64,000 nt of DNA from Perna viridis. Taxonomy: Eukaryota. Positions 1 through 64,000 of this stretch are shown here, piece after piece; position 1 is the first letter of the stretch, and each line of letters opens with the position of its first letter. Made by a program: the position numbers. The DNA is taken from NCBI GenBank assembly GCA_037379345.1, contig CM074521.1, forward strand, positions 25,816,704 through 25,880,703, given 5' to 3'.

Positions 1-3000
1 GTTAATTTTAATTTTGAAAGGGGACAAACCGTATGGGTATTGTTGAAACGGAAAATTTATACAATTTCACAGATGTCTTTTTTCCCAAATCAGTATCTCC
101 TGAAATATCGGACTACAAAACAACCTAATTGTATTTAATTGTTTCATATGGAAATAAACACACACACATTCAAAAAAGAGAAGTAAAACAATAATTTGAG
201 CAGATGACTTGTAAATTTCGTTTTTATTTTAACTGATACTGTATATAAGCTGAATATGTTTTGTATATTATTTTGAGTTTTTATTTTAAATCGAAAAAGA
301 TCAGATTGCTTTACTCATTTTTCCCTAACAGTTACAACTGCCTCTACAACTGTTCCACCAACTACATCGACTCCACCAGTTTCAACCCCTGAAACATGTG
401 AGGAGGTTGACAACATGGGACCATTATCAGAAAACATTAAAGAGGTGACAAAGAATGGTAATCCATTGACTGAAGATGATAAGAACAAATTACAGCCTGG
501 TGATGATAAGAAGTTAACTGTATCTAAGACTGACACTTTGTCCATTGTTATGGAAACACAAGAAGAAGTTGATAAAATTGAAGTACTGGAAACAACCAAT
601 GTAAAGGAAGTAAACGTTGTCCTGAAGGACGAAGATGGAACAACAGTTCTTGTAAGTAAAATATCAATAAATGTATTAATACTCTCGAAATTAATTATCT
701 TTTTAATTTCATTTTTTTTTTCATTTCTTTATTTCATGCATTATAACCAATCTTCGGTATAACTTAAAATGCACATACATTTATAAGATTAGTTTCTTTG
801 TTTTGTTACAGTGTTGGACTTTTTATTTTTTGCCATCGAAAAAAGATTCACATTTCCAATGGAAAGTGTTTAGATTTTACATGCATCAACTGTCCGAAGC
901 AGGATTGGCGATTTTCAAAATAAACAAGAACTTTCATTCTTAATAATTGAATTTAAAATATTAAATGTTTTTGATTTGTAGGATGAGACCATTTCACCAG
1001 AGGAAATTGTAAATGTTCCAAATAAGGTAGCTGGAAGTATCACTTTCACATTTGTACCAACAGATCCAAATGAAGATATGGAAGTAGGATCCATTTCTGC
1101 TGAAGTTTGTGTTAAACCTGGTAAGTGTTGTGATTAGATTTTAAGATATATTTAGAACATGTCAGATCTTTAATTCTGGTTCTTGTGTGATATAATTGTG
1201 ATGCAAACATGATAATTGAGTAATTTGTATGTGAAATATCCTCTAATGGATAAACATTTGGATCTGTGGTATATTGAGAGAAATGTTTGGGTTAGGACTA
1301 GACATTTCTTATGGGAAATTAGGATCTGGTAATGTTTGTGATTAGATATAGTTTTTTTTCCATATTTTGTTTCTTTTGTATAGCTTATATTTTTTTGTAT
1401 CTTTTTGTCTGAGTTTTTTTTAAATTTTTTTTAAACTTGTTACTAAATTGTTCTAGAAATTTGTTCCAAGAGATGTCTTTTGTTCTCGCTATTTCAATTT
1501 GGTATCATGAGTCGATCTGTCTATCATGTTTTGCGACTTAAAGGCAGAGGGAGATGATTTTGTATACGCAACATCCTCCTCTTACAAAAGAAAATTGGAT
1601 ACTCCGTTTTGCTTACTGTTATAATAATACTGTTAAAAAGTATTGTTAATCATTTGTTTGCTAATTCAGAGTGTATTAATGTATTGTTAACATATGTTTT
1701 CCTTGTCATTTATATAATAGATATGTTGCAAATGGTATTGCAAAATTATTCTATGTTGAAACATTTAAAGATGACGTATTATTTTATTGACATTGTTATT
1801 GGCTCATATGGCTTAGAAATTACCCCTACGTTTTTTGAAAATTTCGCTAAGTTTCAGTTTACTACATTGATATTTTGTCTTGAGAGATTTACGTGTAGGT
1901 AAGTGAGGTGACAGTGGTTTTCCGGAACAATTTGTCTTTCATTAATAAGATATACTTAGAAATTTAAATTAACATCACTATTTCTGCGAAGTTCGTTTGG
2001 TAATGCATCATTTTTTATATATCAGATTTTCATTTGTCTCTCTTCATTTTCAGTTGGTGTTTGCATTTTGAACCCTTTGTCAATACAGCAACTGTATAAA
2101 CTAAATTTTTCGAGCAACTTGGCGGGTGTATCTAGAAAGATGACGTATTATCTTTAAACAATCTTAATTTCGGAGATTTGATACATCGCATCTAACCCCA
2201 AAGAACTTGTAATAAAGGATACTACAGACACTATAAAGTCGGCCTCAAATCCTGGCCTACAATTAGAAATCGGTGGTAATAGGAAAACTATTGACCACAC
2301 TTTACGACAAACATGATGACATTTTATTCAGAATTGTTTACTTTCCTTTCATCTGTGGCAACATCCCTTCTGTACCTGCGTATGGAGTGTTCATATCACA
2401 ACTCATACTTTATGCCAGAGCTTGTCGAAACTACGCAGACTTTTTGTATAGCACTAGAATTCTAACAAATAGGCTTCTGAAACAAGGTTATGTTACAGAG
2501 GTTTTATGGTCGTCATCATGAACTCGTTGATCGTTACGGTGTATCCATCTGCGCAATGAAAACTGATTTCGTCTACCCCTGACTGGACTTTTCATGAGCA
2601 ACTCGACGGGTGTTTCTATAAAAGAAGAGAACGCTTTCCCTACCGGTGCACCTGGTCCATGCTCCCATTTTTTAAGTGGAGTACGAGTTGCACGTTTGCT
2701 TTTGTTACTTTGTATGTATGATTTTAGTTACTTTATGTTCTTTGTTGTGTAAGTCTGTTTACCATCTGTGGTCTTTGTCCCTGGATTACATTCTTTTGAT
2801 TACCGCTAGAATCTTGGTTCCATTGATTACTCGAAACAAACTGTTGAGTCTTAAAGTTATTCTTTTTTTTTCAATGACTATAAAATGCAATATATTAATG
2901 TCTTTGAATTTAGTACTTTTATAATTGACCCCAAACAAAAAATATATTTCTTGCACATTTTTCTGTACTGGAAAATTTTAATCTCGCTATGGTATTGATG

Positions 3001-63000: not shown

Positions 63001-64000
63001 GACCTACAACAGCAGGTACTGGACCAAGTCCAACAGGAACTGGACTTACAACAGCAGGCACTGGACCAACAACTGCAGGCACTGGTCGAACTACAACAGC
63101 AGCTACTGGACCAACAACTGCAGGCACTGGTCCGACTACAACAGCAGGTACTGGTCCAACACCAACTGGAACTGGAGCAACTACAGCAGTAACTGGTACC
63201 ACTCCAACTGGCACTAGACCAACAACTGCAGCCACTGGTCCAACAACTGCAAGCACTGGACCTACAACTGCAGCCACTGGTCCAACTGGAACTGGACCTA
63301 CAACAACAGCTGTAACTGGCACAGGACCTACAACAGCAGGTACTGGACCAACACCAACTGTAACTGGAGCTACAGCAACAGGAACTGGAGCAACTACAGC
63401 GGTCAGTGGTACCACTCCAACTGGCACTGGACCGACAACTGCAGGCACTGGTCCAACTACAACAGCAGGTACTGGTCCAACACCAACTGGAACTGGAGCT
63501 ACAACAACAGGAACTGGAGCAACTACAGCAGTAACTGGTACCACGCCAACTGGCACTGGATCAACAACAGCAGCCACTGGTCCAACAACTGCACTAACTG
63601 GTGCAACAACTTCAGCCTTTGGACCTACAACTGTAGGCACTGGTCCAACTTCTACAGGAACTGGACCTACAACAGCAGGTACTGGACCAACAACTGCAGG
63701 CACTGGTCCGACTACAACAGCAGGTACTGGTCCAACTACAACAGCAGGTACTGGTCCAACACCAACTAGAACTGGAACAACTACAGCAGTAACTGGTACC
63801 ACTACAAGTGGCACTGAACAAACAACACCAGGAACAGGTCCTACAACTGTAGGCACTGGTCCAACTACATCAGCAGGTACTGGTCCAACACCAACTGAAA
63901 CTGGACCTGCAACAACAGGAACTGGAGCAACTACAGCAGTAACTGGTACCACTCCAACTGGCACTGGACCAACAACAGCTGGTACTGGACCAACAACTGC

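What the first reader, a model, noticed from the sequence alone, without database searches (positions are those of the whole stretch)
332..64000. Tandem locus of two giant paralogous mucin/adhesive-type glycoprotein genes
Seen: gene A ends in TSP1/TIL/VWC/CTCK. Gene B follows about 8.5 kb later on the same strand and alternates globular two-Cys domains with thousands of Thr-rich residues. Both share a paralogous domain (CEEVDxM...DEDG...CxKP). Established: CTCK mediates disulfide dimerisation in VWF and gel-forming mucins; huge repeat-rich TSP1/TIL/discoidin proteins occur in invertebrate adhesives such as flatworm Mlig-ap2 and sea-star Sfp1. Inference: this may be a lineage-specific polymeric mucus, adhesive or matrix gene cluster with a beads-on-a-glycosylated-string architecture. 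Unlike standard gel-forming mucins, no VWD exons are visible ahead of gene B's discoidin domain.
Basis: partly seen in the sequence, partly recalled or inferred. Interest (0 to 1): 0.75.

Follow-up and report, generated by a model that had tools for sequence, protein, structure and literature searches.

The report
Two adjacent invertebrate mucin-like genes
The window holds the tail of one secreted matrix-type gene and the first ~6,000 codons of a huge mucin-like gene next to it, an ordinary kind of invertebrate mucus or adhesive gene that carries one small domain no library recognises.

Summary
On the + strand, gene A (332-15758) can be modelled as 18 exons, about 942 codons in the window. They encode a two-Cys module, two short Thr-rich exons, five TSP1 repeats plus one degenerate copy, two TIL, two VWC-like modules and a C-terminal cystine knot, then a stop and AATAAA. 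Gene B starts about 9.1 kb later (24892 to the window end, 17 exons, about 5,987 codons). It has a candidate signal peptide, a discoidin domain, three two-Cys modules and 5,369 Thr/Gly/Pro-rich residues. Coding is supported in three ways. Splice phases are continuous, two split codons restore conserved cysteines, and repeat units differ three times more often at third codon positions. The Thr-rich part grew by tandem copying of an exon-plus-intron cassette (introns 93% alike). Gene A's module and gene B's first module are clear paralogues (E 4e-13); gene B's other two share only layout. Not shown: that gene A is giant (its 5' end is off-window), that gene B ends in a cystine knot, and any expression. 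The two-Cys module matches nothing in Pfam, PDB or the Atlas. My reading is mucin-like secreted glycoproteins, a new variant of a known kind.

The parts
332..651 (+). Gene A exon: Thr/Pro linker plus N-part of two-Cys module A (first Cys at 397)
   Evidence: AG acceptor phase 1, GT donor phase 0; BLASTP to module B1 E 4e-13; no Pfam hit
982..1120 (+). Gene A exon: C-part of two-Cys module A (ends CVKP)
   Evidence: phase 0 in, phase 1 out; BLASTP to B1 exon 2 E 2.3e-6
3237..3344 (+). Gene A short Thr-rich (PTS) exon
   Evidence: phase 1-1, 36 codons
3814..3942 (+). Gene A short Thr-rich (PTS) exon
   Evidence: phase 1-1, 43 codons
5885..6049 (+). Gene A TSP1 repeat 1
   Evidence: Pfam TSP_1 41.5 bits; phase 1-1
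7102..7272 (+). Gene A TSP1 repeat 2 (weak)
   Evidence: Pfam TSP_1 17.3 bits, below cut-off 21.6; WDDW motif seen; phase 1-1
7692..7941 (+). Gene A TIL domain 1
   Evidence: Pfam TIL 24.4 bits, cut-off 24.5; phase 1 in, 2 out
8718..8764 (+). Gene A Cys-rich mini-exon after TIL 1
   Evidence: phase 2 in, 1 out, links neighbours; no Pfam hit
9548..9623 (+). Gene A TSP1 repeat 3, first half
   Evidence: Pfam TSP_1 27.5 bits, profile 2-24 of 49
10703..10861 (+). Gene A TSP1 repeat 3 second half and start of a VWC-like module
   Evidence: phase 2-2; no Pfam hit alone; the VWC-like cysteine pattern was read by eye
11339..11388 (+). Gene A mini-exon continuing the VWC-like module
   Evidence: phase 2 in, 1 out; the codon split with the previous exon reads Cys
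11857..12024 (+). Gene A TSP1 repeat 4
   Evidence: Pfam TSP_1 43.2 bits; phase 1-1
12295..12453 (+). Gene A TSP1 repeat 5
   Evidence: Pfam TSP_1 28.3 bits; the codon split with the next exon reads Cys
12890..13051 (+). Gene A degenerate TSP1-like Cys-rich exon
   Evidence: no Pfam hit; phase 1-1, 54 codons
13318..13520 (+). Gene A TIL domain 2 and start of VWC
   Evidence: Pfam TIL 24.6 bits; phase 1 in, 0 out
14270..14377 (+). Gene A VWC, middle
   Evidence: Pfam VWC 20.8 bits, below cut-off 27.6; phase 0-0
14796..14856 (+). Gene A VWC, end (CC..C)
   Evidence: phase 0 in, 1 out; no Pfam hit alone
15403..15758 (+). Gene A last exon: C-terminal cystine knot (11 Cys) and TGA stop
   Evidence: Pfam Cys_knot 18.6 bits, below cut-off 24. 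All aligned Cys are collinear with Norrin, E 0.18. The top 5 Foldseek hits are sclerostin and VWF CTCK, not significant, from a model of pLDDT 43
15893..15898 (+). AATAAA, candidate polyadenylation signal of gene A
   Evidence: first AATAAA after the stop, 135 nt downstream
24892..24949 (+). Gene B candidate first exon: ATG plus 19 hydrophobic residues (signal peptide candidate)
   Evidence: the only ATG-started hydrophobic frame with a phase 0 or 1 donor found in 15.8-25.2 kb under my own criteria; weak evidence
25198..25484 (+). Gene B discoidin (F5/8 type C) domain, N-part
   Evidence: Pfam 26.2 bits, cut-off 28.2; Neuropilin-1 E 0.001; phase 1 in, 0 out
27192..27333 (+). Gene B discoidin domain, C-part (ends ...GC)
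   Evidence: phase 0 in, 1 out; no Pfam hit alone; assigned by position and terminal Cys
29011..29363 (+). Gene B Thr-rich linker plus N-part of two-Cys module B1
29650..29785 (+). Gene B C-part of two-Cys module B1 (ends CEKP)
31710..31838 (+). Gene B PTS exon, truncated cassette (tail only)
   Evidence: phase 1-1, 43 codons
32107..32883 (+). Gene B PTS cassette exon (259 codons)
33181..42189 (+). Gene B giant PTS exon (3,003 codons; about 109 copies of a 66-nt / 22-aa unit)
   Evidence: TRF period 66, 109.2 copies; codon-position test
42485..44347 (+). Gene B PTS cassette exon (621 codons)
44644..45696 (+). Gene B PTS cassette exon (351 codons)
45989..46537 (+). Gene B PTS cassette exon, diverged tail (183 codons)
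   Evidence: the donor is weak (5 of 8 consensus positions)
46984..47282 (+). Gene B two-Cys module B2, N-part
   Evidence: phase 1 in, 0 out; weak Pfam Big_9, E 0.017; no PDB match
47848..47980 (+). Gene B two-Cys module B2, C-part
   Evidence: phase 0 in, 1 out; BLASTP to B3 exon 2 E 0.013
48587..49921 (+). Gene B PTS exon with 7-aa repeats (about 55 copies of a 21-nt unit)
   Evidence: TRF 55.2 copies, 85% matches; the donor is weak
56235..56506 (+). Gene B two-Cys module B3, N-part
   Evidence: phase 1 in, 0 out; BLASTP to B1 E 0.007 and to B2 E 0.042
60628..60778 (+). Gene B two-Cys module B3, C-part (ends CLKP)
   Evidence: phase 0 in, 1 out
62584..64000 (+). Gene B PTS exon, open at the window end
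   Evidence: TRF period 21, 56.7 copies

Best explanation
The window holds two neighbouring + strand genes for secreted, modular, mucin-like glycoproteins of an invertebrate.

Gene A is seen only from a two-Cys module onward. It ends in an array of TSP1, TIL and VWC modules and a C-terminal cystine knot. By analogy with VWF and gel-forming mucins, the knot would pair two chains tail to tail by disulfides in the ER (inferred).

Gene B starts with a candidate signal peptide and a discoidin (F5/8 type C) domain. It then alternates three small globular modules, each bounded by one Cys near each end, with more than 5,300 residues of Thr/Gly/Pro/Ala/Ser repeats. These repeats would be densely O-glycosylated into stiff, hydrated bottle-brush segments (inferred). 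The unglycosylated modules and the discoidin domain would be the sites for protein or glycan contacts (inferred).

The Thr-rich region expanded in two ways. An exon-plus-intron cassette of phase 1-1 was copied in tandem, and a 66-nt unit was amplified inside the exons (shown).

Shown: the domains, the phase-consistent exon chains, coding constraint in the repeats, and A-B1 module paralogy. Inferred: secretion, glycosylation, dimerisation, and a mucus or adhesive role.
For: Domains: Pfam hits exon by exon and Neuropilin-1 b-domain matches for the discoidin exon.

Cystine knot: 11 Cys, all aligned Cys collinear with Norrin. The top 5 Foldseek hits are sclerostin or VWF CTCK, though not significant.

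Exon chains:
- 18 of 18 gene A exons and 16 of 16 internal gene B acceptors have AG/GT, continuous phases and no internal stop.
- Two split codons read Cys at conserved positions.
- All 7 complete PTS exons of gene B are multiples of 3 and phase 1-1.

Coding constraint: third-position mismatch 0.237 against 0.078 and 0.082. Synonymous/nonsynonymous counts are 540/423 against 148/843 and 74/860 in the other frames.

Cassette copying: five introns between PTS exons have 93% mean column identity.

Gene A termination: stop 12 codons after the last knot Cys, then AATAAA 135 nt later.

Other points:
- No credible minus-strand gene.
- Published parallels: limpet mucus P-vulgata_6, TSP1 x4 plus cystine knot (PMC7333891, passages).
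- Mlig-ap2, with giant central repeats, C-terminal TSP1 and O-glycans (PMC6410801, passages).
- The F5_F8 domain is typical of lophotrochozoan mucin-like proteins (PMC4948705, passages).
Against: - There is no transcript or protein evidence of any kind.
- Exon bounds were chosen to keep phase, so phase continuity is partly by construction.
- Cys_knot, VWC, one TSP1, one TIL and F5_F8_type_C all score below Pfam's curated cut-offs on single exons.
- The signal-peptide exon is a single weak candidate found with criteria of my own.
- Donors at 46537 and 49921 are weak.
- No VWD, C8 or other N-terminal multimerising module is seen for gene B, and no CTCK is seen for it, so polymerisation of gene B is unsupported.
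- The repeat count in a 9-kb near-perfect array may be mis-assembled.
- The Thr-rich frame is not the only long open frame across the array. The opposite strand is also open for 3,015 codons, so ORF length alone proves nothing.
Confidence: 0.7

Rival explanations
1. The window holds one giant gene, not two. The cystine-knot exon uses an internal donor before its stop codon and splices to the discoidin exon, so the knot lies inside a single protein of many thousands of residues.
For: A GT donor at 15720 (6 of 8 consensus positions, phase 1) lies after the last knot Cys and before the stop. It is phase-compatible with the acceptor at 25198 (phase 1). The signal-peptide exon proposed for gene B is weak. 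No other gene lies in the 9 kb between them.
Against: The knot exon has its own in-frame stop 12 codons after the last Cys and an AATAAA 135 nt beyond it. In VWF, mucins and SCO-spondin this knot is C-terminal (PMC8487547, passages). A hydrophobic ATG-started exon with a phase-1 donor sits 249 nt ahead of the discoidin exon.
Confidence: 0.15
2. The two genes are neighbours but not whole-gene paralogues. Gene A is the local SCO-spondin or hemicentin-type matrix gene. Gene B is an unrelated mucin that acquired one module, plus its Thr-rich linker, by exon shuffling between neighbours.
For: Only one module is demonstrably shared (A versus B1; exon 2 E 2.3e-6). B2 and B3 are not found by an A+B1 model. 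Every module here is flanked by phase-1 introns, which makes exon shuffling easy. Gene A's visible Thr-rich content is only 79 codons in two exons plus a 21-residue linker.
Against: Gene A also has PTS exons and a Thr/Pro linker before the shared module, laid out as in gene B. Neither gene's other half is in the window, so whole-gene paralogy cannot be excluded.
Confidence: 0.3
3. Part of the locus is not a working gene. The Thr-rich array could be an assembly expansion or collapse, or a decaying pseudogene, and the long open frame could be a by-product of a stop-free repeat unit.
For: Both strands and several frames stay open across the array. A 100% identical 1341-bp tandem array in a nearby intron shows very recent duplication or an assembly artefact. 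A relic copy of the linker exon lies at 28824-28935 with no usable phase-1 donor.
Against: The three-fold excess of third-position change and the excess of synonymous change occur only in the Thr frame. All TRF periods are multiples of 3. Splice sites and phases are conserved in 5 of 5 cassettes. No modelled exon has an internal stop.
Confidence: 0.1

Closest known systems
Limpet pedal-mucus protein P-vulgata_6 (Patella vulgata; PMC7333891, passages read)
   Same: A molluscan mucus or adhesive protein listed with TSP1 x4 and a C-terminal cystine knot, and likened there to SCO-spondin, hemicentin and Mlig-ap2. This is the same kind of tail as gene A.
   Different: The paper's table lists no TIL, VWC, PTS or two-Cys module for it. 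Supplements were closed and may hold its sequence and domain map.
SCO-spondin (review PMC8487547, passages read)
   Same: TSR, TIL and VWC repeats ending in a CTCK. It also contains one FA5/8C domain. Polymerisation is proposed through VWD/TIL and CTCK.
   Different: SCO-spondin has EMI, three VWD and 13 LDLrA domains, none of which is seen in this window. It has no long PTS arrays or two-Cys modules. Here the discoidin domain and the TSR/CTCK tail sit in what are most likely two different genes.
Gel-forming mucins / VWF type (Lang et al. 2016, PMC4948705, passages read)
   Same: Central PTS arrays interrupted by small Cys-containing globular modules. VWC and CTCK at the C-terminus (gene A). 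The F5_F8 domain is reported as characteristic of lophotrochozoan mucin-like proteins.
   Different: The defining N-terminal VWD-C8-TIL units are absent ahead of gene B's discoidin domain. The interrupting modules have two Cys, not the Cys-rich CysD type, and no Pfam model matched them.
Flatworm adhesive Mlig-ap2 (PMC6410801, passages read)
   Same: A huge protein (14,794 aa) with a long central repeat array, TIL domains, multiple C-terminal TSP1 repeats and O-glycans.
   Different: Its repeats are 221-255 aa units, not 7-22 aa Thr/Gly/Pro units. It has VWD and LDL domains at the N-terminus. The passages read mention neither discoidin nor CTCK.
Insect hemolectin / hemocytin (as described in PMC4948705)
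   Same: It combines F5_F8_type_C domains with TIL-containing units, and some members have a small PTS region.
   Different: It is defined by a 3+2 arrangement of VWD-C8-TIL units, none of which is seen here. Its PTS is very small.

Membership tests
Gel-forming mucin (VWD-C8-TIL x3, PTS, VWC, CTCK) | N-terminal VWD-C8-TIL units | tested here: not met
   Gene B: 0 of 33 + strand open frames of 45 aa or more in 15.8-24.9 kb hit VWD, C8 or TIL, and the protein starts with a discoidin domain. Gene A's N-terminus is off-window and untestable.
Gel-forming mucin (VWD-C8-TIL x3, PTS, VWC, CTCK) | Long central Pro/Thr/Ser-rich repeat domain | tested here: met
   Gene B: 5,369 residues, T 39.8%, P 11.6%, S 6.9%, with tandem repeats and coding constraint. 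Gene A shows only two short PTS exons in the window.
Gel-forming mucin (VWD-C8-TIL x3, PTS, VWC, CTCK) | C-terminal cystine knot | tested here: inconclusive
   Gene A: Pfam Cys_knot 18.6 bits, below cut-off 24. It has 11 Cys collinear with Norrin at E 0.18, and the top 5 Foldseek hits are CTCK-type but not significant. Gene B's 3' end is off-window.
SCO-spondin | Array of TSR with TIL and VWC, ending in CTCK | tested here: met
   Gene A has 5 Pfam-supported TSP1 (4 above cut-off), 2 TIL, 1 Pfam-supported VWC plus 1 read by eye, and a terminal knot.
SCO-spondin | EMI, three VWD and many LDLrA domains upstream | not testable with these tools
   None is present in 1-5,800 of the window. Gene A's upstream part lies outside the window. 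What directly precedes the TSRs here is a PTS segment and a two-Cys module, which the passages read from the SCO-spondin review do not list.
F5/8 type C (discoidin) domain | Match to the family profile, and Cys at both ends of a roughly 140-150 aa domain | tested here: inconclusive
   The first exon alone scores 26.2 bits against a cut-off of 28.2, covering profile 10-88 of 127. Neuropilin-1 b-domains match at E 0.001, with CASPR2 Disc and FVIII weaker. Cys is the second residue of exon 1 and lies three residues from the end of exon 2. The whole-domain score needs the joined exons, a step left out.
CysD (mucin WxxW) domain | Profile match and many conserved Cys in the module that interrupts PTS | tested here: not met
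   8 of 8 two-Cys module exons gave no such Pfam hit at E <= 0.1. Each module has only two Cys.
Two-Cys module as a divergent discoidin / galactose-binding-like domain (my own hypothesis) | Detectable sequence or fold similarity to the discoidin domain | tested here: not met
   hhalign gives E 0.29 and 0.15. The module HMMs do not find the discoidin exons. PDB profile searches give nothing significant. The AF2 model of exon 1 has pLDDT 63 and Foldseek gives nothing. Only layout agrees: the same 1-0-1 intron phases, the intron at 65-69% of the Cys-to-Cys span in all five, and spans of 123-139 aa.

The most novel reading that the evidence does not exclude
The two-Cys module may be a previously undescribed extracellular domain family. 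It would be a disulfide-closed beta-rich bead of 123-136 residues between its two Cys, always encoded by two exons with intron phases 1-0-1. It could derive from the gene's own discoidin domain, which has the same exon layout and the same Cys placement. In that case it would serve as the non-glycosylated cross-linking or glycan-binding node of a mucin that assembles without any VWD domain, with the discoidin domain at its N-terminus.
Probability: 0.2. Interest if true: 0.55.

Novelty: new variant of a known kind. Interest (0 to 1): 0.35.

Why it matters
Invertebrate mucus and temporary adhesives are built from giant, poorly assembled glycoproteins, and few have a full gene model. This locus gives a phase-checked exon map of one such gene pair. 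It shows how a PTS region grows, by tandem copying of a symmetrical exon-plus-intron cassette and by unit amplification inside exons. It also points to a small two-Cys module that no domain library recognises. If the module proves to be a distinct family, or a much-changed discoidin domain, it would add a second kind of bead to the mucin toolkit beside CysD. It would also suggest a VWD-free way of building a mucus network. If close homologues are already annotated in public proteomes, the locus is an ordinary member of a catalogued class.

Tried and rejected
- **Module family.** The four module copies do not form one statistically supported sequence family. Leave-out HMMs built from A+B1 or from B2+B3 find only their own members among 1,830 open frames. 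The best cross hit is A exon 2 at E 0.023. Pairwise values are marginal: B1-B3 0.007, B2-B3 0.042 and 0.013. I keep B2 and B3 as probable distant copies on layout alone.
- **Module as discoidin.** Not supported by hhalign, HMM or PDB searches.
- **Fold of the module.** AF2 on the exon-1 alignment gave pLDDT 63, and Foldseek gave nothing at E <= 0.001. One exon is an incomplete domain, so this negative says little.
- **ESM Atlas.** No usable hit for B1 exon 1. The second query could not be run.
- **CTCK exon.** The AF2 model has pLDDT 43. I use its Foldseek list only as a soft pointer.
- **More module copies.** None was found in six-frame open frames of 20 aa or more.
- **Extra PTS exon at 28832-28937.** Rejected, because it has no phase-1 donor. 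It is a 74% copy of the linker.
- **Non-coding RNA.** Rfam gave 0 matches and the tRNA scan 0 genes.
- **Minus-strand genes.** None is credible.
- **Literature.** Two broad searches were too unspecific. One search with five terms found 0 papers. This shows only that no held paper carries all five words.
- **Collections not used.** The phage, plasmid and E. coli collections and the bacterial/archaeal genome collection were not searched, since the window is animal DNA.

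
Full report
**What the window is.** It has 64,000 bases and no N. GC is about 30% outside the repeat arrays and about 51% inside them. I do not take it for human: the base composition, the GT-AG introns and the module set point to an invertebrate animal. A bivalve or other mollusc is my guess only. It rests on recalled peptide motifs of interspersed repeats and on no call. 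Rfam and a tRNA scan found nothing. No credible gene lies on the minus strand outside the mirror frames of the repeats.

**Limits on the searches.** The joined step, meaning searching or folding a spliced protein, was left out. This limits the verdicts on split domains: discoidin, VWC and the two-Cys module. Whether close relatives are already annotated therefore stayed unchecked. Supplements of the papers were closed. Those of PMC7333891 and PMC4948705 may hold sequences and domain maps that bear on novelty.

**Gene A (332-15758, + strand).** Pfam, exon by exon, gave the following.
- TSP_1: 5869-6126 (41.5 bits), 9523-9654 (27.5), 11826-12032 (43.2) and 12261-12521 (28.3) are above the cut-off of 21.6. 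7020-7388 (17.3) is below it.
- TIL: 24.4 and 24.6 bits against a cut-off of 24.5.
- VWC: 20.8 bits against 27.6.
- Cys_knot: 18.6 bits against 24.
- One further exon (12890-13051) looks like a degenerate TSP1 and has no Pfam hit. A first VWC-like module (10703-10861 plus 11339-11388) was read by eye only.

The knot exon has 11 Cys. HMMER aligns its cysteines collinearly with Norrin at E 0.18. A single-sequence AF2 model is poor (pLDDT 43). Its five best Foldseek hits are nevertheless sclerostin and VWF CTCK chains, at E 0.29-1.5, which is not significant. The frame stops 12 codons after the last knot Cys, and the first AATAAA follows 135 nt later.

**Gene A exon model.** With canonical AG/GT sites, an 18-exon chain is phase-continuous and free of internal stops. 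I chose the bounds to fit phase, so that continuity is partly by construction. Two split codons (10861/11339 and 12453/12890) read Cys exactly where VWC and TSP1 expect one, and that was not built in. In the window gene A codes for about 942 residues, and its 5' end lies upstream of base 1.

**Gene B (24892 to the window end, + strand).** The discoidin call rests on two results. F5_F8_type_C scores 26.2 bits on the first exon alone (profile 10-88 of 127, cut-off 28.2). Neuropilin-1 b-domains match at E 0.001. The second exon (27192-27333) ends in ...GC and gave no hit alone.

One ATG-started hydrophobic mini-exon with a phase-1 donor (24892-24949) is the only signal-peptide candidate found under my own criteria. 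It is weak evidence.

No mucin-type N-terminal module lies ahead of the discoidin domain. Of 33 + strand open frames of 45 aa or more between 15.8 and 24.9 kb, none hit VWD, C8 or TIL. Five had chance-level hits to unrelated families.

**The Thr-rich arrays.** Eight exons code for 5,369 residues: T 39.8%, G 20.3%, P 11.6%, A 10.1%, S 6.9%, V 6.6%.
- The largest exon (33181-42189) has 3,003 codons with about 109 copies of a 66-nt (22-aa) unit.
- Exon 48587-49921 has about 55 copies of a 21-nt (7-aa) unit at 85% matches.
- The last exon runs off the window.

ORF length alone is no evidence, since other frames and the opposite strand are also open. The codon-position test is evidence. Between neighbouring units the mismatch rate is 0.078, 0.082 and 0.237 at positions 1, 2 and 3. 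Codon differences are 540 synonymous to 423 nonsynonymous in the Thr frame, against 148/843 and 74/860 in the other two frames.

**How the array grew.** Exons 32107-32883, 33181-42189, 42485-44347, 44644-45696 and 45989-46537 begin with the same head. All but the last, whose tail has diverged, end with the same tail. All are phase 1-1 and multiples of three. The five introns of 268-297 nt that link the six PTS exons from 31710 to 46537 have 93% mean column identity. Exon 31710-31838 is a cassette tail only. The PTS region therefore grew by tandem copying of an exon-plus-intron cassette, and by unit amplification within exons.

**The two-Cys module.** There are four copies: A, B1, B2 and B3.
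- Each is encoded by two exons with intron phases 1-0-1.
- Each has one Cys near the start and one 3-4 residues before the end.
- The Cys-to-Cys spans are 123-136 residues.

A and B1 are clear paralogues. Exon 1 gives E 4e-13 at 40% identity, and exon 2 gives E 2.3e-6. B2 and B3 are not recovered by an A+B1 model, nor the reverse, among 1,830 open frames. Pairwise values are marginal, 0.007 to 0.042. I treat them as probable distant copies on layout.

No library recognises the module.
- Pfam: 0 relevant hits for 8 of 8 exons.
- PDB: nothing significant.
- Atlas: no usable hit.
- AF2 on the exon-1 alignment: pLDDT 63, with no Foldseek match.

The gene's own discoidin domain has the same 1-0-1 layout, the same Cys placement and a 139-residue span. 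The intron lies at 65-69% of the span in all five domains. This suggests a common origin, but hhalign (E 0.29 and 0.15) and HMM searches do not support it. It stays a lead.

**Mechanism.** The following is shown:
- modular extracellular proteins on one strand;
- a terminal cystine knot in gene A;
- a beads-on-a-string layout in gene B;
- coding constraint in the repeats.

The following is inferred from established knowledge of VWF and mucins, as summarised in PMC8487547 (passages):
- the knot pairs chains tail to tail by disulfides;
- the PTS arrays are densely O-glycosylated and extended;
- the unglycosylated modules and the discoidin domain mediate contacts.

From memory, not from a call: WxxW motifs are C-mannosylation sites, and CxxS/TCxxG is an O-fucosylation site. 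I read WxxW in 5 of the 6 TSP1-type exons, and the fucose motif in 2, from the translations. Polymerisation of gene B is not supported, because neither a VWD nor a knot is seen for it.

**Comparison with known proteins.** The tail of gene A is SCO-spondin-like. It also resembles the limpet mucus protein P-vulgata_6 (PMC7333891). Gene B resembles gel-forming mucins in its PTS-plus-bead layout. Lophotrochozoan mucin-like proteins are reported to carry F5_F8 domains (PMC4948705). Gene B fails the VWD-C8-TIL criterion in the window, and its beads are not CysD. Mlig-ap2 shares gigantism, central repeats and C-terminal TSP1 (PMC6410801).

**Verdict.**
- The locus is a new variant of a known kind.
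- Interest is moderate to low (0.35) unless the two-Cys module proves to be a distinct family.

Noticed in passing
window 51562-54730: A tandem array of a 1341-bp unit, about 2.4 copies, 99.4-100% identical, sits inside the large gene B intron between the 7-aa PTS exon and module B3. It is either a very recent duplication or an assembly artefact.
   Followed up: partly
window 28824-28935: A 74% identical copy of the Thr-rich linker that opens exon 29011-29363. It has a good phase-1 acceptor at 28832 but no phase-1 donor. It is probably a relic of a local duplication or an unused mini-exon.
   Followed up: partly
window 2587-2832, 3016-3163, 6409-6640: Three copies (72-83% identical) of a short interspersed repeat lie in gene A introns. 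They gave no Pfam hit and no Rfam or tRNA match. I recall similar peptide motifs from bivalve repeats, but that comes from memory only.
   Followed up: partly
window 9196-9514 and 58204-58605; 17536-17845 and 20686-20985 (inverted); 27514-27832 and 28204-28532 (inverted); 31079-31312 and 48000-48208 (inverted): Further interspersed or inverted repeat pairs of 170-340 nt at 67-82% identity lie in introns and in the intergenic region. They are likely transposon remnants.
   Followed up: no
window 2267-2518 and 18893-19117: Open frames here resemble each other and, from memory, a repeat-borne protein fragment common in marine invertebrate genomes. Neither gave a Pfam hit.
   Followed up: partly
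window 55292-55895 and 57463-57582: Minisatellites lie in the intron between the two exons of... more exactly around module B3: a 33-nt unit of about 7 copies within a wider degenerate array, and a 38-nt unit of 3.2 copies at 93% matches.
   Followed up: no
window 15720: A phase-1 GT donor lies inside the cystine-knot exon, after the last knot Cys and before the stop. It is phase-compatible with the discoidin exon acceptor at 25198, so a read-through isoform joining the two genes cannot be excluded.
   Followed up: partly
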